This document shows positions 1 to 50,367 of a stretch of 51,662 bases of DNA, one piece after another (the stretch's first letter is position 1; every line of letters begins with the position of its first letter). Position numbers and translations under genes: made by a program. This DNA comes from a virus (taxonomy: Duplodnaviria; Heunggongvirae; Uroviricota; Caudoviricetes). The stretch lies in IMG/VR virus record IMGVR_UViG_2526164599_000006; one strand, written 5' to 3'. Below the pieces are notes generated by a model that was not told the DNA's origin, searched no databases, and saw nothing but the letters and a program-made list of their open reading frames with translations.

Positions 1-1131
1 TCAAATGACCAGTTTTTTCCATTCCTTACCGCGTGCGTCGTTGTAAATATCGGTCATTTTTTGATTCGAATGGCCCAGCAAAATTTTGGTATCAACCCCC
101 TGCTCTCTGAACAATCGCTCTGATAAAGATCTCTGCTCATGGAAAGAGGGAGGGGTGCCATTAGCACGCCAGTTGTAATCCACAGAATCCCGGGCTTTTT
201 TAAATGCAACGGTTAATGTTGCTGGCTTAACCATCCCGCCGCGCTTAGCTGTCCCTTTCGCGTGATGGTGGTGCAATAGCCACGGACTAAGAACGCAATC
301 GCGGCAGGATGACACCACATCATCCAGGGTGAGATTTAATTTATCGCAACGCAGAGCCAGAGGGATGGCAATCCGGGTTCCTGTTTTTTGCTGTTCGACA
401 TGAAGATAACCATCCCGGATATCCGAAAATTGCATTTTGAAAATATCTGAAAGGCGCTGGCCTGTCATCAGTGCCAGCAGCATACCGCGCTGTAAAAAGT
501 AACCATCCTTTTCCGCTGCGTTATAAATCATCATCCACTCATCAAAAGTCAGTCGCTGTCTTGATATCCGCACCTGCGGTTTTTTTGCCGATTCTGCAGG
601 GTTAAAGCCTGGCGGGACATCGCCCGTTTGCTGAGCTTCCCGGAAAACATCGATCAGTACTTTCCTGAAAATTTGTCCCATTCTGTTATGTCCTCTGGCC
701 TTGTACTCTTCCAGTACTGATACCACATCTTTTACGGTTATGGCATCTAACGGTCTGGTGCCAAAACGTTCATCAAATACCCTGAGAGGGGCCGCTTTCT
801 GTTTCAGCGTGTTGAGTTTGATCTCGCCGTTTTCATATCTTTCCTGTTGAATTTTTCTGTAATTATTCAGAAAAATGGTAACGGTTGATGAACCGCCGGT
901 ATCACTAATAATTTTCTCCTGCAGACTGAGCATTTGTTCCATTTGCTGCCGGGCAAGACGGCTGTTCGCTTCTGCTGCAATAGTTTCTGCCAGTTTCTGG
1001 TCAATACTGCCGAGACCGTGATTTTTGCCTGTTATGGGATGCCTGTAACGCCAGTAAACTTTGTTATTTCTTTTGTCAAAATACGGAGATAATCCCGGAA
1101 CATCGGTTTTATATTTTCGCGGGCGCGCCAT
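1..1131 (-). CDS. int: phage integrase, tyrosine recombinase family
   Basis: 376-aa ORF; C-terminal region (HHHHAKGTAKRG...LLGHSNQKMTDIYNDARGK) has the layout of lambda-type integrase catalytic domain; sits at prophage end next to an excisionase-like gene. Confidence 0.9.
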   Translation of the reverse strand: MARPRKYKTDVPGLSPYFDKRNNKVYWRYRHPITGKNHGLGSIDQKLAETIAAEANSRLARQQMEQMLSLQEKIISDTGGSSTVTIFLNNYRKIQQERYENGEIKLNTLKQKAAPLRVFDERFGTRPLDAITVKDVVSVLEEYKARGHNRMGQIFRKVLIDVFREAQQTGDVPPGFNPAESAKKPQVRISRQRLTFDEWMMIYNAAEKDGYFLQRGMLLALMTGQRLSDIFKMQFSDIRDGYLHVEQQKTGTRIAIPLALRCDKLNLTLDDVVSSCRDCVLSPWLLHHHHAKGTAKRGGMVKPATLTVAFKKARDSVDYNWRANGTPPSFHEQRSLSERLFREQGVDTKILLGHSNQKMTDIYNDARGKEWKKLVI

Positions 1132-1421: not shown

Positions 1422-3893
1422 TTAAAAATCAGCCTGATTCGGGATCAGTTTTTGCCAGATAGCTGAAACGTATTTTGCCTGGTAACGGGCATCATCCAGC
1501 GCATTGTGGCGCTCACCTTCGAATGGGATAGCAGTTCTGGCATCGAAGTCTACGGCTTTCCCCAGCTCAACGATTGTGCGTACATCGCGATCGTTGCAGT
1601 AGCGCCACGGGCAGGGGATACCCTGTCGTTCGTATGAACGGCGCAAAATCGTGTTGTCGAAGTTGGCCCCATTACCCCAGACCTGAACAAAAAACTCACC
1701 GGAGTTTTCGTCGATAAATTCCCGCAATTGCAGTAGTGCATCATCTAACGGGATTTCATCGGTCATAATGGCAGACTGCGCTTCACGTGATTGCTTCAGC
1801 CACCATTTAATGACGTCACGATCAATGACTCCGCCAGCAGTATCCAGATCGATGGTCTTGCTAAATTCTGGTCCCATATCTCCGGTTTGCGGATCGAAAA
1901 ATATTGCGCCTATTGAGATAATCGGGGCATCGGGATTTTTTCCCATGGTTTCAAGGTCGATCATTAGATGGTCACACGTCCTGCTGGTGGATGTGATAAC
2001 GTGATGACCGTTCATCGTAATTAAGGGATCTGCCGTCTCGCCAGTTTCACTATCGCTGGCGTGATCCTGAGCGCTACCAGCATTCTCCTTGTGTGGATGT
2101 TCAGCGCCTTCCATTTCCTTCGGATCATTTTCCTGAACTTCAACCTGATTCTCTTCATCGAATGTTTCCTGGTATGTTGCGTCACCCATCACCGCGCCAC
2201 AATCAGGGCAGTTGCCGCCACCGCTTTGACCGCAGGCGGTGCAGACTTTTTCCGGTTCCTGTTGCGCTACTGGCTCAGGTTGTTTCGTTTCTGGCTCGTT
2301 TTGTTGCGTATTTGGGCTGTTTTGTTCCGCTTTCTGGTCGTTCTGTTCCGATTCTTGCTGGTTCTGGTTTACAGAATCGCGGGTTTCAATCCCCTTTACC
2401 CATTTCGGATCATTCGGGTCGCTAATCCCTGCAACAAATTCTCCGCGAGAGGCAGCAAGCAACTTATCGGCGTCAGGCTGGCTGATATTGGCTGCCTGCA
2501 TAATTTTGTTTACTTCGTCAGCGGTAACTTTTACCGGCTCTGGTTGTGCGGTCGTGTCAGATGCACCAGTATTTTGTTGTGAACCTGAGTACGTGCCGTT
2601 TTTACGTGCGAAGTATTCCTCTTTTGTGATTTCCGTAGCTCCCAAGGCTAGTGCTTTTTCCAGACCAGAAAGTTTGTTTGCGCGACCGTATTTTTCGCCA
2701 TCCTTGTCGGTGAAGAGGAAGTAGAACGGCCCCTCACGCTCTACAGATGGTTCGACTTCCACTTTGCATTCGGTTTTTTCGTTGCCCGGAATTGCCGTTT
2801 CCACTGCATCAGTTTCTGGTACTGGCGACGAGAGAGTATCAGTTGCGCTCTGATTTCTTCCTTCATCTTCAAACACGCCCTTTGTAGTCAGGTATTCAGT
2901 AATGTATTTGTTCAGTGCCACAGGGTCTTTGTGAATGTCGATCGGACGTTCACGGACAAGGCCAAAAATAGTCTGGCGGTCGTAGCGAAGGGCATCAGGC
3001 TGTTTGCGCATTGATGCCGAGATACGCTTCCAGTCTTCGCGGTCGTTGTCGATAACTTCATTTTTTGCCCAGCGATGGATGCTGCCGTCAATGTTTCCGG
3101 CATCCACATCACCAGGCCAGAGAGCGTAGGCCAGTTCGTCATCCAGTGTTTTCCATGTCTGCTTGTATTCGCGATGAATGGCAGCAATGACCGGGCTGAT
3201 TTTTCCTGTTGAATTTTCACTGTGCTGTTGATTGGTTCTGGCGCGGGCGAGATCAACAACAGACGTGTATTTTCCGGTTTCCTTGCGTTCACCTTCGCGA
3301 CGTTTTTTCCAGATGCGCATCTCTGCCTGAATTTCGGGCCATTTGGCACCAGGCTTACATTTATGCTTAACCCACCCGATGGCATGCAGCTTAAGCTCCG
3401 GATACATGGCGTTAACTTCTGGCATTTTCATCAACGCTTCAACGATATGTCCGTCGAATGTTGCCATGTCTTCCTGCAACAATTCCTGTGCGCTAATAAC
3501 CATATCAACGGTGATGTTTTCACATGTGTCGAACTTAACCATGACAGCGTTCTGTACTTCAGGGGCCAGCTTGTCAAAAGTGACGTTCATCGGATCGGAT
3601 TCAGTCTCAACCGGGACAAAGGAAGCAGACTCCTCATCCCAGCGGTTTTCCTGCATATATTCAGCATCCCAGGAATCGAGGGCAGGGCGGGGTATACCGG
3701 GTTTATCCTCGCAGACAAGAAATTTATAAGCGCAGTCCTGAGCAGCCGGATAATGCTCCAGGAATTGCCAGTGAAATTTTGCGCGGGCGCGACGTTCATC
3801 ACCGGCTTCAATGGCAGTGGCTACAGCGACGGCACCTTCTTCCTTTATTGCCTGTTCGTCCGGAATGGCGGCGCAAATAAAGACTTTACTCAT
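1422..3893 (-). CDS. putative exonuclease, C-terminal DEDD-type 3'-5' exonuclease domain (class often annotated exodeoxyribonuclease VIII in prophages)
   Basis: 823-aa ORF; C-terminus has DnaQ-like motifs (DLETMG..., FDNTILRR..., HNALDDARY); central low-complexity Q/E/N-rich linker and a CxxC...CxxC zinc-ribbon. Confidence 0.65.
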   Translation of the reverse strand: MSKVFICAAIPDEQAIKEEGAVAVATAIEAGDERRARAKFHWQFLEHYPAAQDCAYKFLVCEDKPGIPRPALDSWDAEYMQENRWDEESASFVPVETESDPMNVTFDKLAPEVQNAVMVKFDTCENITVDMVISAQELLQEDMATFDGHIVEALMKMPEVNAMYPELKLHAIGWVKHKCKPGAKWPEIQAEMRIWKKRREGERKETGKYTSVVDLARARTNQQHSENSTGKISPVIAAIHREYKQTWKTLDDELAYALWPGDVDAGNIDGSIHRWAKNEVIDNDREDWKRISASMRKQPDALRYDRQTIFGLVRERPIDIHKDPVALNKYITEYLTTKGVFEDEGRNQSATDTLSSPVPETDAVETAIPGNEKTECKVEVEPSVEREGPFYFLFTDKDGEKYGRANKLSGLEKALALGATEITKEEYFARKNGTYSGSQQNTGASDTTAQPEPVKVTADEVNKIMQAANISQPDADKLLAASRGEFVAGISDPNDPKWVKGIETRDSVNQNQQESEQNDQKAEQNSPNTQQNEPETKQPEPVAQQEPEKVCTACGQSGGGNCPDCGAVMGDATYQETFDEENQVEVQENDPKEMEGAEHPHKENAGSAQDHASDSETGETADPLITMNGHHVITSTSRTCDHLMIDLETMGKNPDAPIISIGAIFFDPQTGDMGPEFSKTIDLDTAGGVIDRDVIKWWLKQSREAQSAIMTDEIPLDDALLQLREFIDENSGEFFVQVWGNGANFDNTILRRSYERQGIPCPWRYCNDRDVRTIVELGKAVDFDARTAIPFEGERHNALDDARYQAKYVSAIWQKLIPNQADF

Positions 3894-4467: not shown

Positions 4468-4892
4468 TGTTTTTGGTTTTAACTGTTCCGCGTGCGCTCA
4501 GCCGCATTCACCACATCACAAAATTCACTTTAAAAAGGGCGGCAGAGCAGTCACGGAGTAAAACTGATACCGCCAAACGTCACCAGAAAATTGATAACAG
4601 AGGGCGTTGCAGCGGGGTTGTCACTTAAGCGTATGGTCAACCTGACAACCCGGTGTCCTCAACGGGGGAAGGAATAACCCCGCCATACTTACCGCCGCGC
4701 CATTTCGCGGATTGCCACAACCGGAAGCGCACGGTCGACGAAAATTTAACGACAGGCTATCTATGAACCAGCTACCTCGCCGTGCGCTTTCGCGTTATGG
4801 TCTGACTTTTCAGGGAAATATCCTTTCAGTAAACTTGTCAACGCCAAGATTATTGGCCGTTTTTCGCCATTTTTAATGTCCGCTATTGGTCA

Positions 4893-6859
<1,967 letters not shown>

Positions 6860-7057
6860 GAGTGTTCCCTTTGTGGTGTAGGAACCTTAAGGAAACAACA
6901 TGTTGGGTGGAGCGGACAATCCAAATGGTGAATTACTGTCTTATATCATTGGCGCTGACAAACTGTCAGTGCCGGATTCTTATCCGTGTCCGGCGCACGA
7001 CCACACGCTGTCACGAGAGGTCTCCATTCTCAACCAGTAACCTCAATGGAGGATAAA

Positions 7058-8034: not shown

Positions 8035-8313
8035 TTAGGGAAACTGGCGTCTTGCGTGGATCACGTTTACTACTTCAACGCTTGATGTTGTTACGCGGTA
8101 TAGAATTATATAGTTAGGGTGGGCTACAATCTCACGCAAGCCAGGTACTCTGTCGCTTGGTGGGTATAAATACGGATGTTCGGATAACGGCAGCACACAA
8201 CCCCTTAATCGCTGCCATAAGCGTTCAGCCGCATCTATGTCGAAACGAGCAATATAACTAGTTATATCATCTAGGTCGGTATCTGCGCTTTCAAGCCATA
8301 ACACGGGTAACAT
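8035..8313 (-). CDS. parE2: ParE-family toxin (ParE2-like)
   Basis: 92-aa product from internal Met of the 124-aa ORF (MLPVLWLESADTDLDD...HPNYIILYRV...); start overlaps stop of upstream antitoxin with 1-nt spacing. Confidence 0.8.
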   Translation of the reverse strand: MLPVLWLESADTDLDDITSYIARFDIDAAERLWQRLRGCVLPLSEHPYLYPPSDRVPGLREIVAHPNYIILYRVTTSSVEVVNVIHARRQFP

Positions 8314-8314
8314 T

Positions 8315-8506
8315 TTACTGCTTGCTCCGTTCCTTACGCATCTTAGCAAAGCGTTCTGCCATTCTGCGCTCAACTTCGTCATGGGGAATTGCTGGGCGCG
8401 GATCTGCAAGGCTCGTTGCTACTTTCGCACGCAGCCATTCGTTGTAACTGTTTTCTTGTTCAATGGTTTCAAATTCAGAAACCATTGGTGAAAGGGCTCT
8501 ATTCAT
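8315..8506 (-). CDS. paaA2: PaaA2-like antitoxin
   Basis: 63-aa product (MNRALSPMVSEFETIEQENSYNEWLRAK...) immediately upstream of parE-like gene; matches remembered PaaA2 of the E. coli O157:H7 paaR2-paaA2-parE2 system. Confidence 0.7.
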   Translation of the reverse strand: MNRALSPMVSEFETIEQENSYNEWLRAKVATSLADPRPAIPHDEVERRMAERFAKMRKERSKQ

Positions 8507-8526: not shown

Positions 8527-8805
8527 TCAGGCGCGGCGGCATTTTTGCGCCGCAATCCATCTCGCTATGAGATCTTCCATTGATTCTTTTTTCTGCTTTA
8601 ACTCGCTGATTATCTGGCGTTGCTCATCCTCAGGGAAGGCTGAAAAAATCTGCAATAATTCCAGTTGATTAGACGTTAACCCTGCATGTGGTGGAGAAAC
8701 CCCCGGTTGTTCTGCGTATTCCGCATCCAGATACCCTTCCGGCATCCCGTATGTTTGCTCTATTCTTCTGGCAGCCTTTTCTCCAAACGAGGCTCTCCCA
8801 CTCAT
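8527..8805 (-). CDS. repressor-like regulator (PaaR2/CI-like), N-terminal HTH region apparently out of frame
   Basis: 92-aa ORF from ATG 8805; the same frame continues upstream without a start codon and encodes HTH-like residues (EIRRLRLKEWFKDKTLPPKEKSYLSQL); an ATG at 8897 is in another frame separated by an A7 tract (8887..8893). Confidence 0.5.
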   Translation of the reverse strand: MSGRASFGEKAARRIEQTYGMPEGYLDAEYAEQPGVSPPHAGLTSNQLELLQIFSAFPEDEQRQIISELKQKKESMEDLIARWIAAQKCRRA

Positions 8806-8936
8806 TAGTTGAGATAGGTAGCTCTTCTCTTTGGGTGGCAGAGTTTTATCTTTAAACCACTCCTTGAGACGTAAACGGCGAATTTCTTTTTTTGCATGTG
8901 GTAATTATCTTTAGTAATCACTAAACAAGCAAATAC

Positions 8937-8966
8937 TTGACTTAATGGTTTATTAAACACTAAACT
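8937..8966 (+). promoter_or_regulatory. candidate rightward early promoter/operator (pR-like)
   Basis: TTGACT (8937..8942) and TAAACT (8961..8966); three CACTAAAC repeats at 8919, 8958, 8977; RBS GAGGAAGG before ATG 8995. Confidence 0.35.
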
Positions 8967-8994
8967 CGCAAAAAAACACTAAACCGAGGAAGGT

Positions 8995-9297
8995 ATGACA
9001 TTAAAAGAGTTTATTAAATCATTAAGGGTTGGTGATGCTAAGAAATTCGCGGCCAGACTTGGTGTATCGCCATCTTACTTATCGCAAATGGCGTCTGGAC
9101 GAACAGCTATATCTCCAACCCGCGCCCTTATGATCGAATCTGCGACGGAAGGCCAAGTAAGTAGGGCGGAGCTACGACCCCATGATTGGGAGCTTATTTG
9201 GCCTGAGTATGCGAGCGGCATTCGTTTGGGGCAAACACATGTAGTTCATGCTGAAGGTGATTGTAGTACATGCTTATCTGATGGAGTTGATTCATGA
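8995..9297 (+). CDS. Cro/YdaS-like HTH regulator
   Basis: 100-aa ORF with XRE-type HTH (FAARLGVSPSYLSQMASGRTAIS); first gene of rightward operon, divergent from repressor-like gene. Confidence 0.7.
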   Translation: MTLKEFIKSLRVGDAKKFAARLGVSPSYLSQMASGRTAISPTRALMIESATEGQVSRAELRPHDWELIWPEYASGIRLGQTHVVHAEGDCSTCLSDGVDS

Positions 9298-25629: not shown

Positions 25630-25850
25630 TTTTTGCGGGTCCTTTCCGGCGATCCGGGCCGTTACGGGGCGGCGACCTCGCGGTTTTTCACTATTTATGA
25701 AAATTTTTCAGGGAAAATCGTGTCGGTACTTCTCGAATATAACTTTTTGTTTTTTTAATATTGCATTCATAAATGTCCGACATGAAAGTGTCCGAAAATG
25801 CCTTTTTCTGGCGTTTTCATGTCGGGCCTTGTATTTGATAATGGGTTGTT
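25630..25850 (+). other. cos site (cosN at 25667..25678 with cosB-like repeats downstream)
   Basis: GGGCGGCGACCTCGCGG...CTATTTATGAAAATTTT matches remembered lambda cos; repeated GTCCGA(C/A)A(T/A)G-like elements at about 25770..25830 before Nu1. Confidence 0.7.
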
Positions 25851-39982: not shown

Positions 39983-40726
39983 ATGACAGAGACAGAATCA
40001 GCGATTCTGGCGCACGCCCGGCGATGTGCGCCAGCGGAGTCGTGCGGCTTCGTGGTGAGAGCGCCGGAGGGGGAAAGATATTTTCCCTGCGTGAATATTT
40101 CCGGTGAGCCGGAGGATTATTTCCGGATGGCTCCGGAGGACTGGCTGCAGGCAGAGATGCAGGGTGAGATTGTGGCACTGGTCCACAGTCATCCCGGTGG
40201 TCTGCCCTGGCTGAGTGAGGCTGACCGGCGGCTGCAGGTGCAGAGTGATTTGCCGTGGTGGCTGGTCTGCCGGGGTGAGATTCATAAATTCCGCTGTGTG
40301 CCGCATCTCACCGGGCGGCGCTTTGAGCACGGGGTGACGGACTGTTACACGCTGTTCCGGGATGCTTATCATCTGGCGGGGATTGAGATGCCGGATTTTC
40401 ATCGCGGGGATGACTGGTGGCGTCACGGTCAGAATCTCTATCTGGATAATCTGGAGGCCACAGGGCTGTATCAGGTGCCGTTGTCAGCGGCGCAGCCGGG
40501 CGATGTGCTGCTGTGCTGTTTTGGTTCATCGGTGCCGAATCATGCCGCCATTTACTGTGGTGACGGCGAGCTGCTGCACCATATTCCTGAACAACTGAGC
40601 AAACGAGAGAGGTACACCGACAAATGGCAGCGACGCACACACTCCCTCTGGCGTCACCAGGCATGGCACGCATCTGCCTTTACGGGGATTTGCAACGATT
40701 TGGCCGCCGCATCGACCTTCGTGTGA
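39983..40726 (+). CDS. K: tail assembly protein K (NlpC/P60 and JAB-like)
   Basis: Product MTETESAILAHARRCAPAESCGFVV... as lambda gpK. Confidence 0.85.
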   Translation: MTETESAILAHARRCAPAESCGFVVRAPEGERYFPCVNISGEPEDYFRMAPEDWLQAEMQGEIVALVHSHPGGLPWLSEADRRLQVQSDLPWWLVCRGEIHKFRCVPHLTGRRFEHGVTDCYTLFRDAYHLAGIEMPDFHRGDDWWRHGQNLYLDNLEATGLYQVPLSAAQPGDVLLCCFGSSVPNHAAIYCGDGELLHHIPEQLSKRERYTDKWQRRTHSLWRHQAWHASAFTGICNDLAAASTFV

Positions 40727-41264
40727 AACGGGGGCTGAAGCCATCCGGGCACTGGCCACACAGCTCCCGGCGTTTCGTCAGAAACTGAGCGATGGCTGGT
40801 ATCAGGTACGGATTGCCGGGCGGGATGCAGGAGAAACCGAATTATCATCCCGTCTTAATGAGCCGCTGGCAAATGGTGCCGTGATCCACATCGTGCCGCG
40901 TCTTGCGGGAGCAAAAAGTGGCGGTGTGTTTCAGGCGGTGCTGGGTGCGGCGTTGATTGCTACGGCAATCTGGATGCCGGGGATCAGTATCGCTTTCAGT
41001 GACATTCTCTTTTCAATGGGTGCGGCGATGACGCTTGGTGGTGTGGCGCAGATGCTGGCACCGAAAGCCAGAACTCCACGTACACAGACAACGGATAACG
41101 GCAAACAGAACACCTATTTCTCCTCACTGGATAACATGGTTGCCCAGGGCAATGTCCTGCCTGTTCTGTACGGTGAAATGCGCGTGGGGTCACGTGTGGC
41201 ATCTCAGGAGATCAGCACGGCAGATGAAGGGGATGGTGGTCAGGTTGTGGTAATTGGGCGGTAA
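40624..41264 (+). pseudogene. I: tail assembly protein I, interrupted by a 1-nt frame disruption
   Basis: N-terminal 54 codons in frame 1 (ATG 40624, stop 40786..40788); remaining I-like sequence in frame 0 is open from 40599 to 41264 with no ATG; shift lies at AAA/GGGGG tracts 40726..40734. Confidence 0.5.
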
Positions 41265-49698: not shown

Positions 49699-50367
49699 CT
49701 ATTTTTTCCCTGAAGCGGAAAACATTACTACAGTACCTTGAACCTTGGTTTTAACATTCTCGAAATGCTCTGAGAGTATATGTGTTAAGCCTTCTTCGGA
49801 ATCTTTTGTGTTTGAAAAGATGCCTTTCTGATTGTAAATGCGCATCAGTTTTTGACCGAAGCTATTGTGCACAACTCCATCGCCAAGAATTGTGGCTCCG
49901 TATAGAGTTCCATCGTCAGTTAAGGCCTGCGCCGCATTGCGTATTACACAGCTTTTTGTAGATATATTTCCAGGCAGGCAGTGAAGAAGGTAAAACATGG
50001 AAATGGAATCAAATTGACCATGTAACGCCGCGGGATAAGGTTCAAAAACATCATGGCTAATTTTATGTTTAATTTTTGATTCCCCAGCCCTTGTAGATGC
50101 CGCGTTCAGGCTAGCTTCGTTCAAATCCATTAAAGATATCAGACTACTCTCAGGTACGTGAGTAAGGTAAAACCCAGTTCCAACACCAATATCCAGATGG
50201 TTGTTACCTACATGTTCCAGAAAGTGTGGAAGAAGGTGTTCCTTTGTAGGACATCCCCATGCAAGCCGATTTGATACTCCCAAAACCCACCAGTCATAAA
50301 GCTTTAGGGTAAGTGGTGTGTAAATTTTAGCCCCATCATCTGTGTTTTTTTTCATTGATTTCACCAT
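49699..50367 (-). CDS. class I SAM-dependent methyltransferase (substrate unknown)
   Basis: 222-aa ORF with motif I LDIGVGTG; AT-rich DNA; opposite strand to late operon. Confidence 0.55.
   Translation of the reverse strand: MVKSMKKNTDDGAKIYTPLTLKLYDWWVLGVSNRLAWGCPTKEHLLPHFLEHVGNNHLDIGVGTGFYLTHVPESSLISLMDLNEASLNAASTRAGESKIKHKISHDVFEPYPAALHGQFDSISMFYLLHCLPGNISTKSCVIRNAAQALTDDGTLYGATILGDGVVHNSFGQKLMRIYNQKGIFSNTKDSEEGLTHILSEHFENVKTKVQGTVVMFSASGKK

What the first reader, a model, noticed from the sequence alone, without database searches (positions are those of the whole stretch)
8806..8897. Repressor-like gene has its HTH-encoding 5' region out of frame at an A7 tract
The 92-aa ORF (8527..8805) continues upstream in frame without any start codon and encodes HTH-like sequence there. 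The only upstream ATG (minus strand, 8897) is in a different frame and separated by a run of seven A (plus-strand T-run 8887..8893); eight A would fuse them into an approximately 126-aa repressor. This is either a real frameshift mutation, a phase-variable or slippage-prone tract, or a homopolymer sequencing error.
Basis: seen in the sequence. Interest (0 to 1): 0.45.

Follow-up and report, generated by a model that had tools for sequence, protein, structure and literature searches.

The report
Probable sequencing error in prophage repressor
The gene is the known prophage repressor PaaR2, and its apparent one-base frameshift in a run of A's is most likely a homopolymer sequencing error in an old draft genome, so it is ordinary.

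Summary
On the minus strand, ATG 8897..8895 is followed by an A7 run (8893..8887), and the rest of the gene (92-aa ORF, 8527..8805) is in another frame. The gene is paaR2, the characterised CI-like repressor of lambdoid prophages carrying the paaR2-paaA2-parE2 toxin-antitoxin operon. Its start, MQKKE on a leaderless mRNA, was determined experimentally.

Of 593 complete E. coli genomes with this locus, 579 match the A8 probe exactly and 3 match A7. The window comes from a 2012 draft (AIHI01000010.1, DECA collection). All eight NCBI A7 calls for this allele come from two draft projects of that period. They cover at least four clonal backgrounds whose finished genomes are otherwise identical (for example 5,135 nt, 0 mismatches, 1 gap).

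The window carries two more rare one-base deletions in A/T runs. One breaks tail gene I and is absent from about 9,800 other copies.

Most likely this is a homopolymer undercall (about 0.75). A real mutation is the rival (about 0.2). It would probably be leaky, because A7 creates an in-phase A_AAA_AAG slippery site. Nothing supports programmed recoding or phase variation. Interest is low.

The parts
8527..8897 (-). paaR2, the CI-like prophage repressor, as recorded with a one-base frameshift. With A8 it would encode 123 aa (MQKKEIRRLRLKEWF...CRRA).
   Evidence: Intact 372-nt CDS in EDL933, M16807, M1 and AVS0501. 100% protein identity to M16807 WP_001169687.1 over residues 3-123. PDB 7NKV/8C3K/8C3L. 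Function described in PMC8630535.
8895..8897 (-). Native ATG of paaR2. By identity with EDL933 it is also the 5' end of the leaderless PRM933P transcript.
   Evidence: Upstream DNA identical to EDL933. 5' RACE, Edman sequence MQKKE and intact mass reported in PMC8630535. The transcription start is inferred by identity and was not measured in this strain.
8887..8893 (-). A7 homopolymer (A8 in nearly all other genomes); the site of the apparent one-base deletion.
   Evidence: 579 of 593 complete genomes match the A8 probe exactly and 3 match A7. Metagenome contigs: 5 of 6 have A8 and one has CAGAAAAAAG.
8886..8892 (-). A_AAA_AAG heptamer created by the A7 state, in phase with the ATG frame (codons CAA AAA AAG). 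A -1 slip here would give exactly MQKKE...
   Evidence: Read directly. Shiftiness of A_AAA_AAG in E. coli from PMC5009743. Rescue of one-base deletions at C-AAA-AAA near a start codon from PMC1851650. Use of this site here is inference only.
8805..8897 (-). ATG-frame short ORF as recorded: 30 codons (MQKKKFAVYVSRSGLKIKLCHPKRRATYLN) plus a TAA stop at 8807..8805 that overlaps ATG 8805 (TAATG).
   Evidence: This exact peptide is not in the 15-billion-protein collection.
8527..8805 (-). 92-aa ORF, equal to PaaR2 residues 32-123. It lacks helix 1 and most of the HTH.
   Evidence: The same product is called on 24 contigs, nearly all under 2 kb.
8881..8883 (-). ATT codon (Ile6 of PaaR2) that NCBI's PGAP uses as the start of a 118-aa CDS in A7 genomes, so the frameshift is not flagged as a pseudogene.
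   Evidence: WP_134790997.1, WP_282835446.1. A leaderless mRNA has no ribosome-binding site upstream of it, so this start is unsupported.
8898..8994 (.). 97-bp divergent control region with the PRM933P and PR933P promoters and the OR operators. A likely PRM -10 element, GATAAT, lies at 8909..8904 on the minus strand.
   Evidence: The 97-bp spacing and footprints are in PMC8630535. The sequence aligned upstream of the ATG (about 60 nt) is identical to EDL933. The -10 assignment is my inference.
8315..8506 (-). paaA2 antitoxin (63 aa).
   Evidence: Pfam PF21217, E = 1e-19. 100% identity to WP_001302048.1.
8035..8313 (-). parE2 toxin (92 aa).
   Evidence: Pfam PF05016, E = 1.9e-16. 100% identity to WP_001303511.1.
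8995..9297 (+). ydaS, the Cro analogue transcribed divergently from paaR2.
   Evidence: Pfam YdaS_toxin and HTH_3. Role described in PMC8630535.
9294..9719 (+). ydaT, the CII analogue.
   Evidence: Pfam PF06254. Role described in PMC8630535 and PMC9986795.

Best explanation
The gene is paaR2, the CI-like repressor of a lambdoid prophage that carries the paaR2-paaA2-parE2 toxin-antitoxin operon. In the living strain it is most probably intact, with A8 and 123 aa. In that case it is translated from a leaderless mRNA starting at ATG 8897, represses the divergent ydaS-ydaT promoter and the PL-like promoter, and autoregulates its own promoter. The A7 in this record is most probably a homopolymer undercall in the 2012 draft assembly the window comes from (GCA_000250375.2, contig AIHI01000010.1, E. 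coli DECA collection), so the frameshift is a sequencing artefact. Shown here: gene identity, the native start, the A8 consensus, the source record, and the clustering of A7 calls by sequencing project. Inferred: that the base is truly present in the strain's DNA, and that the platform was 454 pyrosequencing.
For: (1) The intact state is the norm. 579 of 593 complete genomes match the A8 probe exactly and 3 match A7. The intact 123-aa protein is on at least 999 contigs, against 24 for the 92-aa form and 9 for the 118-aa form.
(2) A7 tracks the project, not the lineage. All eight NCBI assemblies with a real A7 call for this allele are 2012-era drafts from two projects: AIFU, AIGI, AIHH, AIHI (DECA) and AJVV, AJVX, AKAW, AKBC (the GenBank names of the 92-aa form include CVM O26:H11 and O111:H8 strains). 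They cover at least four backgrounds.
(3) Drafts and read-set assemblies differ from finished genomes of the same clone only at the tract. L061 versus O26:H11 11368: 5,135 nt, 0 mismatches, 1 gap. L045 (SRR497698, contig in 11 samples): 0 mismatches. L047 versus O111:H8 9662: 0 mismatches. L062 versus EDL933: 3 mismatches. L046 (identical to the window) versus M16807: 0 mismatches.
(4) Where the O157 allele shows a length variant at this tract, the assembly often has other homopolymer errors. ABHM02 has 7 homopolymer indels in 3.3 kb and reads A9 at the tract. GL896788 has 3 in 2 kb and reads A7. L048 also has T7 to T6.
(5) The window has two more rare one-base deletions in A/T runs: T8 to T7 at 25750 (1 exact match in 573 genomes) and A4 to A3 at 40726, which frameshifts tail gene I (0 exact matches among 9,803 copies in 4,080 genomes). 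The related DECA assembly AIHJ, which encodes the identical tail fibre protein, has the intact A4.
(6) There is no secondary decay: the rest of PaaR2, PaaA2, ParE2, YdaS and YdaT are 100% identical to intact relatives.
(7) The prophage is otherwise complete, with 24 of 25 structural genes full length. A true repressor null would be hard to maintain in such a lysogen (inference).
(8) The same centre and lab was using 454 Titanium with the Celera assembler for E. coli in 2012 (PMC3491183).
Against: The raw reads could not be inspected. Independent assemblies of the read sets reproduce A7 (SRR096911 is 100% identical to the window). So it is not an assembler artefact and must be either a platform bias or real. 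The platform of the DECA runs is not documented in any paper I could read, and the 454 link is indirect. Undercalling is not uniform in this assembly: of four checkable 8-base runs, two are correct (T8 at 50345 and an A8 in the trp flank), all 7-base runs are correct, and 7.4 kb of host flank has no indel. A4 to A3 is not a typical consensus-level homopolymer error. Three complete genomes from another project and one long-contig 2021 assembly also show A7 with no neighbouring errors. Real A7 variants may therefore exist, and A8 runs are genuine replication-slippage hotspots.
Confidence: 0.75

Rival explanations
1. A real one-base deletion by replication slippage at the A8 run inactivates or strongly reduces PaaR2. 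Translation of the leaderless mRNA from AUG 8897 would mostly yield a 30-aa peptide. Some 92-aa HTH-less protein might arise by reinitiation at the TAATG overlap. A small fraction of full-length, wild-type PaaR2 could be made by -1 slippage on the in-phase A_AAA_AAG or by RNA polymerase slippage. The result would be a hypomorphic repressor, with the immunity switch biased towards the YdaS-on state.
For: The A7 is in the record and in independent assemblies of the read sets. A8 runs are mutational hotspots. A7 occurs in 3 complete genomes on two backgrounds and A9 in one read set. The prophage shows other possible decay: an IS21-family insertion and a gene I frameshift. A PaaR2-off state is viable for the cryptic prophage CP-933P, where the locus is bistable. 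Leakiness is plausible because A_AAA_AAG is among the most shift-prone heptamers in E. coli, and a lysine-codon run next to a start codon rescued one-base deletions at 25-60% under overexpression.
Against: A real mutation would have to recur independently in at least four clones, almost only in strains sequenced by two contemporaneous draft projects. Finished genomes of the same clones, identical over up to 5 kb, carry A8. There is no secondary decay of the gene. The prophage is otherwise intact, so a repressor null should be counter-selected. No downstream stimulatory structure exists (z = -0.71), and a leaderless mRNA cannot carry an upstream Shine-Dalgarno stimulator.
Confidence: 0.2
2. The tract is a functional switch. 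Either it is a phase-variable contingency tract that turns the repressor on and off, or it is a programmed recoding site where frameshifting or transcriptional slippage is the normal way to express paaR2.
For: The tract lies at codons 2-4 of a regulator, at about +5 to +12 of a leaderless transcript. Length variants A7 and A9 exist in public data. The A7 state gives a textbook in-phase slippery heptamer.
Against: The in-frame A8 state is present in 579 of 593 complete genomes. None of 27 diverged homologues has an A-run at this position although the N-terminal peptide is conserved. A natural allele breaks the run with a synonymous CAG. No stimulatory elements are present. The variants cluster with sequencing projects.
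Confidence: 0.03
3. The short forms are native proteins: the 118-aa product from ATT 8883, as annotated by PGAP, or the 92-aa product from ATG 8805.
For: PGAP annotates the 118-aa form as a normal CDS in A7 genomes. Gene callers call the 92-aa ORF.
Against: Edman sequencing and intact mass show the protein starts MQKKE on a leaderless mRNA, so there is no ribosome-binding site for an internal ATT. Every diverged homologue starts at the equivalent of ATG 8897. The solved domain starts at residue 1. Met32 lies inside the recognition helix.
Confidence: 0.02

Closest known systems
PaaR2 of cryptic prophage CP-933P, E. coli O157:H7 EDL933 (WP_001169686.1; PDB 7NKV, 8C3K, 8C3L)
   Same: Same gene. 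One amino-acid difference (Val instead of Gly at residue 67). Same operon, paaR2-paaA2-parE2. Same divergent ydaS-ydaT genes and 97-bp control region. The aligned sequence upstream of the ATG (about 60 nt) is identical.
   Different: The record has A7 instead of A8, so the reading frame is broken after codon 4. Here the gene sits in an apparently complete lambdoid prophage, not in the cryptic CP-933P.
Lambda CI repressor
   Same: Same position in the immunity region. Leaderless mRNA from a PRM-type promoter. Represses PR and PL analogues and autoregulates. Forms octamers (PMC8630535).
   Different: No detectable sequence similarity. PaaR2 has no peptidase or RecA-cleavage domain and does not respond to mitomycin C. 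It is co-transcribed with a toxin-antitoxin pair.
dnaX-type programmed -1 ribosomal frameshifting (A_AAA_AAG)
   Same: The A7 state has the identical heptamer in the correct phase, and a -1 shift would restore the native protein.
   Different: There is no upstream Shine-Dalgarno or downstream stem-loop stimulator. The frameshift configuration is not conserved. The heptamer exists only as a by-product of the missing base.
Incidental frameshift rescue at C-AAA-AAA in the pDEST17 attB1 site, and 'savior indel' cases such as the herpesvirus thymidine kinase G-run
   Same: A one-base indel close to the start codon, within or next to a lysine-codon or homopolymer run, is compensated by low- or moderate-level slippage (PMC1851650, PMC5009743).
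   Different: Those cases were shown by protein sequencing. Here nothing shows that the indel exists in the DNA, nor that any rescue occurs.
Homopolymer-length errors in pyrosequencing and long-read draft assemblies
   Same: A single-base length change in a run of 8. It recurs across unrelated strains from the same projects, is accompanied by other homopolymer indels, and is absent from finished genomes of the same clones.
   Different: Not every 8-base run in this assembly is affected, and the platform of this particular assembly is not documented in the sources I could read.

Membership tests
PaaR2 (CI-like repressor of paaR2-paaA2-parE2 modules) | Sequence identity to the characterised PaaR2, including the N-terminal DNA-binding domain | tested here: met
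   The restored protein differs from EDL933 PaaR2 at one residue and matches PDB 7NKV at E = 1e-40. 100% identity to WP_001169687.1 over residues 3-123.
PaaR2 (CI-like repressor of paaR2-paaA2-parE2 modules) | Operon context: directly upstream of paaA2 and parE2, and divergent from ydaS-ydaT | tested here: met
   Pfam hits for PaaA2, ParE_toxin, YdaS_toxin and YdaT_toxin on the neighbouring ORFs. Same gene order as EDL933.
PaaR2 (CI-like repressor of paaR2-paaA2-parE2 modules) | Leaderless transcript starting at the A of the ATG | not testable with these tools
   Shown for EDL933 by 5' RACE and Edman sequencing. Here only the identical promoter and start sequence can be shown.
PaaR2 (CI-like repressor of paaR2-paaA2-parE2 modules) | Uninterrupted 123-codon reading frame | tested here: not met
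   The record has A7, so the frame is broken after codon 4. I attribute this to the record and not to the gene.
Programmed -1 ribosomal frameshift site (dnaX type) | Slippery heptamer X_XXY_YYZ in phase with the upstream frame | tested here: met
   CAA AAA AAG after the ATG, at 8892..8886.
Programmed -1 ribosomal frameshift site (dnaX type) | Two-frame arrangement conserved among homologues | tested here: not met
   579 of 593 genomes are in frame with A8. 27 diverged homologues are in frame with no A-run.
Programmed -1 ribosomal frameshift site (dnaX type) | Stimulatory elements: an upstream Shine-Dalgarno-like sequence and/or a downstream structure | tested here: not met
   A leaderless mRNA has no upstream RNA. 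The downstream 88 nt fold no better than shuffled sequence, z = -0.71.
Phase-variable (contingency) homopolymer tract | Tract-length polymorphism within and between lineages in reliable assemblies | tested here: not met
   3 of 593 complete genomes have A7, all from one project. Other A7 or A9 calls are in old drafts or read-set assemblies.
Phase-variable (contingency) homopolymer tract | Tract maintained by selection, that is, conserved despite synonymous alternatives | tested here: not met
   Absent from all 27 diverged homologues. One allele interrupts it with a synonymous CAG.
Homopolymer sequencing artefact | The variant clusters by sequencing project or technology and not by phylogeny | tested here: met
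   All eight real A7 calls for this allele come from two 2012-era projects and cover at least four backgrounds. Drafts are identical to finished genomes of the same clone except at the tract.
Homopolymer sequencing artefact | Other homopolymer-length discrepancies in the same assembly | tested here: inconclusive
   Two more rare one-base A/T-run deletions occur in the window. However, 7.4 kb of host flank is clean and two of four 8-base runs are correct.
Homopolymer sequencing artefact | Raw reads or flowgrams are ambiguous at the site, and an orthogonal platform gives A8 | not testable with these tools
   No access to reads. The platform is inferred only from a contemporaneous paper by the same centre.

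The most novel reading that the evidence does not exclude
The A7 allele is real and acts as a hypomorph, not a null. Deleting one A from the A8 run turns codons 2-4 of a leaderless repressor mRNA into an in-phase A_AAA_AAG. Ribosomal -1 slippage, or RNA polymerase slippage so close to the 5' end, then regenerates exactly wild-type PaaR2 at a low level. That would lower the repressor set-point and bias the bistable prophage and toxin-antitoxin switch towards the YdaS-on state. Recurrent A8/A7/A9 changes would serve as a heritable, reversible dial on prophage immunity.
Probability: 0.06. Interest if true: 0.5.

Novelty: not a real feature. Interest (0 to 1): 0.1.

Why it matters
If the frameshift is an artefact, the value is practical. 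A characterised prophage repressor is misrepresented in several public draft genomes. NCBI's pipeline also hides the problem by annotating a 118-aa protein from an unsupported ATT start, which created RefSeq protein families (for example WP_134790997.1) that probably do not exist. Anyone inferring a repressor-defective prophage or a deregulated ParE2 toxin module from these records would be misled.

If the deletion were real, it would show how a single slippage event in a leaderless repressor gene can weaken prophage immunity without abolishing it. That idea is testable, but the present evidence does not favour it.

Tried and rejected
- Pfam gave no hit for the restored PaaR2. Identity came from synteny, the PDB and the literature instead.
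- An exact variable-length pattern scan of species-representative genomes found nothing. A protein-based scan then gave 27 diverged homologues.
- I considered the window to be one of the three complete A7 ETEC genomes and rejected it. They are only 92-94% identical in the region, while A8 strains are 99.9% identical.
- I took the nine contigs carrying the 118-aa form as nine A7 calls. One (DAZGTS) merely begins inside the gene, and so does L071 for the O157 allele. Several contigs carrying the 92-aa form also start at the ORF.
- I looked up the window's gene I fragment to see whether the A3 lesion recurs. The five hits carry other lesions, or do not span the junction, and come from other assemblies, some with many gaps. 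This was uninformative.
- I looked for a frameshift-stimulating RNA structure downstream of the heptamer. None was significant.
- I tried to read the DECA genome announcement for the platform. It is not held, and an accession search gave an unrelated paper.
- I rejected PGAP's ATT start and the 92-aa form as native proteins.

Full report
**1. What is in the sequence**

On the minus strand the window reads ...GATAATTACCAC ATG C AAAAAAA G AAATTCGCC... The ATG lies at 8897..8895 and seven A at 8893..8887. The ATG frame gives a 30-codon ORF (MQKKKFAVYVSRSGLKIKLCHPKRRATYLN). It ends at TAA 8807..8805, which overlaps the ATG at 8805 of a 92-aa ORF (8527..8805) in another frame. That second frame stays open upstream to a TAA at 8907..8905 and has no ATG, GTG or TTG before 8805.

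**2. What the gene is**

The two ORFs downstream are a PaaA2 antitoxin (Pfam PF21217) and a ParE toxin (PF05016). The divergent genes are YdaS and YdaT family members. In EDL933, M16807, M1 and AVS0501 the same position holds an intact 372-nt CDS, MQKKEIRRLRLKEWF....

This is paaR2 of the paaR2-paaA2-parE2 module, characterised by Jurenas et al. 2021 (PMC8630535). PaaR2 is a lambda-CI analogue. It represses the ydaS-ydaT promoter and a PL-like promoter, and it autoregulates its own promoter. It lacks a RecA-cleavable domain. The paper shows by 5' RACE that the mRNA is leaderless. It shows by Edman sequencing and intact mass that the protein begins MQKKE.

Solved structures of the N-terminal domain (7NKV, 8C3K, 8C3L) begin at residue 1. 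PaaR2 residues 3-48 align with the HTH_3 region of YdaS, SYLSQLMSGR against SYLSQMASGR. Met32 therefore lies inside the recognition helix, and a 92-aa product could not bind DNA through this domain.

**3. Is the short form native?**

No. All 27 diverged homologues recovered from species-representative genomes start at the equivalent of ATG 8897. They include Xenorhabdus, Photorhabdus, Yersinia, Erwinia, Raoultella and others. They share a conserved M-x-x-K-x-I-R-R-x-R-L-K-x-W-F...LPxKEK N-terminus, and none starts at the equivalent of Met32. None has an A-run at this position. One metagenome allele breaks the run with a synonymous CAG. The tract is a peculiarity of the E. coli allele and is not a conserved element.

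**4. Population frequencies**

| Data set | Intact (A8) | A7 or truncated |
|---|---|---|
| 593 complete E. coli genomes with the locus | 579 exact A8 | 3 exact A7 |
| Six metagenome contigs | 5 A8, plus 1 in-frame CAG variant | 0 |
| Protein collection, window allele | 123-aa form on at least 999 contigs | 92-aa form on 24; 118-aa form on 9 |

The three complete A7 genomes are pig ETEC isolates from one Belgian project. They are only 92-94% identical to the window in this region, whereas A8 strains M16807 and AVS0501 are 99.8-99.9% identical. The window's A7 is therefore independent of theirs.

**5. Where the window comes from**

The window's exact tail fibre protein occurs in two NCBI drafts. 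Contig AIHI01000010.1 (GCA_000250375.2) is 100% identical to the window over 15,710 nt, up to the window's last base. The same contig holds the immunity region. The AIHI accession falls in the ranges of the E. coli DECA collection (PMC3558956). A 2012 paper from the same centre and lab describes 454 Titanium paired-end sequencing with the Celera assembler for its E. coli genomes (PMC3491183). I could not read the DECA announcement itself, so the platform is an inference.

**6. Artefact or mutation?**

The key result is that A7 follows sequencing projects and not lineages.
- All eight real NCBI A7 calls for this allele are from DECA (AIFU, AIGI, AIHH, AIHI) or from a second 2012-era draft set (AJVV, AJVX, AKAW, AKBC). 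The GenBank entries for the 92-aa form are named for CVM O26:H11 and O111:H8 strains.
- The ninth contig simply begins inside the gene.
- The eight contigs lie on at least four backgrounds.

Compared with finished genomes of the same clones, the tract is often the only difference:

| A7 contig | Finished genome | Aligned nt | Mismatches | Gaps |
|---|---|---|---|---|
| L061 | O26:H11 11368 | 5,135 | 0 | 1 |
| L066 | O26:H11 11368 | 3,497 | 1 | 1 |
| L064 | O26:H11 11368 | 3,749 | 2 | 1 |
| L062 | EDL933 | 3,702 | 3 | 1 |
| L045 (SRR497698, contig in 11 samples) | O26:H11 11368 | 1,454 | 0 | 1 |
| L047 (SRR495239) | O111:H8 9662 | 1,304 | 0 | 1 |
| L046 (SRR096911, identical to the window) | M16807 | 1,415 | 0 | 1 |

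For the O157 allele, the 118-aa call appears in three informative assemblies: ABHM02, GL896788 and JAHCTZ01.
- ABHM02 has seven homopolymer indels in 3.3 kb and reads A9 at the tract.
- GL896788 has three homopolymer deletions in 2 kb and reads A7.
- JAHCTZ01, a 2021 assembly with very long contigs, reads A7 and differs from EDL933 by no other indel.

A real mutation would have to recur in several clones almost only in strains handled by these projects. A platform-specific undercall explains the pattern simply.

**7. Other indels in the window**

Against relatives that are 99-99.8% identical, the window has two further one-base deletions in A/T runs.
- T8 to T7 at 25750, in an intergenic stretch. 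Only 1 of 573 genomes shares it.
- A4 to A3 at 40726. This frameshifts the lambda-I-type tail assembly gene after MARICLYGDLQRFGRRIDLRVK. It has no exact match among 9,803 copies in 4,080 genomes. The related DECA assembly AIHJ, which encodes the identical tail fibre protein, has the intact A4 there and a different private lesion in gpJ.

Otherwise 24 of 25 structural genes are full length, at 94-100% protein identity to strain GZ04-0086. The proteins of the immunity region are 100% identical to intact relatives.

There are counterpoints. All 7-base runs agree with relatives. Two of four checkable 8-base runs are correct. The 7.4 kb of trp-operon flank on the same contig has no indel against a finished genome. 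Undercalling in this assembly is therefore sporadic and not systematic.

**8. If the deletion were real**

Because the mRNA is leaderless, ribosomes would still start at AUG 8897 and mostly make the 30-aa peptide. The TAATG overlap could allow some reinitiation to give the HTH-less 92-aa protein.

The A7 state also creates CAA AAA AAG, which is A_AAA_AAG in phase. This is the dnaX heptamer and one of the most shift-prone sequences in E. coli (PMC5009743). A -1 shift there yields exactly MQKKEIRR... A comparable run, C-AAA-AAA next to a start codon, rescued engineered one-base deletions at 25-60% under overexpression (PMC1851650). So a real A7 allele would probably be leaky.

No stimulatory structure follows the site (z = -0.71), and a leaderless mRNA cannot carry an upstream stimulator. 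Nothing suggests a programmed event.

**9. Annotation side effect**

In A7 genomes, PGAP does not flag a pseudogene. It annotates a 118-aa CDS starting at an ATT codon, equivalent to window 8883..8881. Given the leaderless transcript and the measured N-terminus, that start is unsupported.

**10. Verdict**

| Explanation | Probability |
|---|---|
| Known gene (paaR2); homopolymer sequencing artefact of an old draft assembly | about 0.75 |
| Real loss-of-function or hypomorphic slippage mutation | about 0.2 |
| Functional phase variation or programmed recoding | about 0.03 |
| Native short protein | about 0.02 |

Interest is low. The decisive test is a read pile-up or Sanger resequencing across 8860..8920.

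Noticed in passing
window 40663..41264 (+), lesion at 40726..40728: The lambda-I-type tail assembly gene is frameshifted by a one-base deletion (A4 to A3) just after the stop codon of gene K. The ATG frame reads MARICLYGDLQRFGRRIDLRVK and then goes out of frame. There is no exact match among 9,803 copies in 4,080 complete genomes. The related DECA draft AIHJ, which encodes the identical tail fibre protein, has the intact A4.
   Followed up: yes
window 25750..25756: An intergenic T-run upstream of the small terminase gene is T7 here and T8 in 572 of 573 complete genomes with the locus. Only strain ST648 shares T7. This is another one-base shortening of an 8-base run.
   Followed up: yes
window about 4841..6959: A segment of about 2.1 kb is absent at the equivalent position in M16807 and AVS0501. 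It encodes an IstA-like transposase (rve, Mu-transpos_C_2) and has weak similarity to an IstB-type ATPase, so it is probably an IS21-family insertion in the early-left region of the prophage. The related DECA draft AIHH lacks it.
   Followed up: partly
window 8881..8883 (-); L005 and L006 3058..3414: PGAP annotates A7 alleles as a 118-aa protein starting at an ATT codon and does not flag a frameshifted pseudogene. This has created RefSeq proteins such as WP_134790997.1, WP_134790801.1 and WP_282835446.1, which are probably artefactual.
   Followed up: yes
L013-L039, 30 nt upstream of position 1501: Many diverged PaaR2 homologues (Yersinia, Raoultella, Enterobacter, Erwinia, Arsenophonus and even Massilia) share a motif like TGTTTAG-N-ATTACTAATCAAAAT directly upstream of the ATG, with a -10-like hexamer ending 6-8 nt before it. 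This suggests conserved operators and a leaderless arrangement across the family.
   Followed up: no
L049 (ERR13317903) and L010 (metagenome ERZ1643250): Other states of the tract exist in public data. One read-set assembly has A9, which is also out of frame. One metagenome contig has a synonymous CAG AAA AAA allele, in frame, with the run broken to A6.
   Followed up: partly
L058 (AIHJ01000012.1) about 4159, equivalent to window about 43320: The related DECA draft AIHJ has gpJ split into 550-aa and 614-aa ORFs by an extra C that is not in a homopolymer. The same few bases also differ between the window and GZ04-0086 by a compensated indel pair. This may be a locally variable or mosaic junction.
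   Followed up: partly
L004 (AVS0501) 1501..2203, equivalent to window 8970..8976: The complete genome AVS0501 has T8 where the window and the other genomes examined have T7, in the paaR2-ydaS intergenic operator region. The drafts L048 and L069 have T6 there. This second homopolymer in the control region also varies between assemblies.
   Followed up: no
window 51662 and L057 15711..23108: The window ends at a Rha/Ash-type gene pair next to a truncated ompW and the yciE-yciF-yciG-trpA-E genes. The prophage therefore appears to sit in the ompW-trp region of the chromosome, with its integrase at the other end (4..1125).
   Followed up: partly
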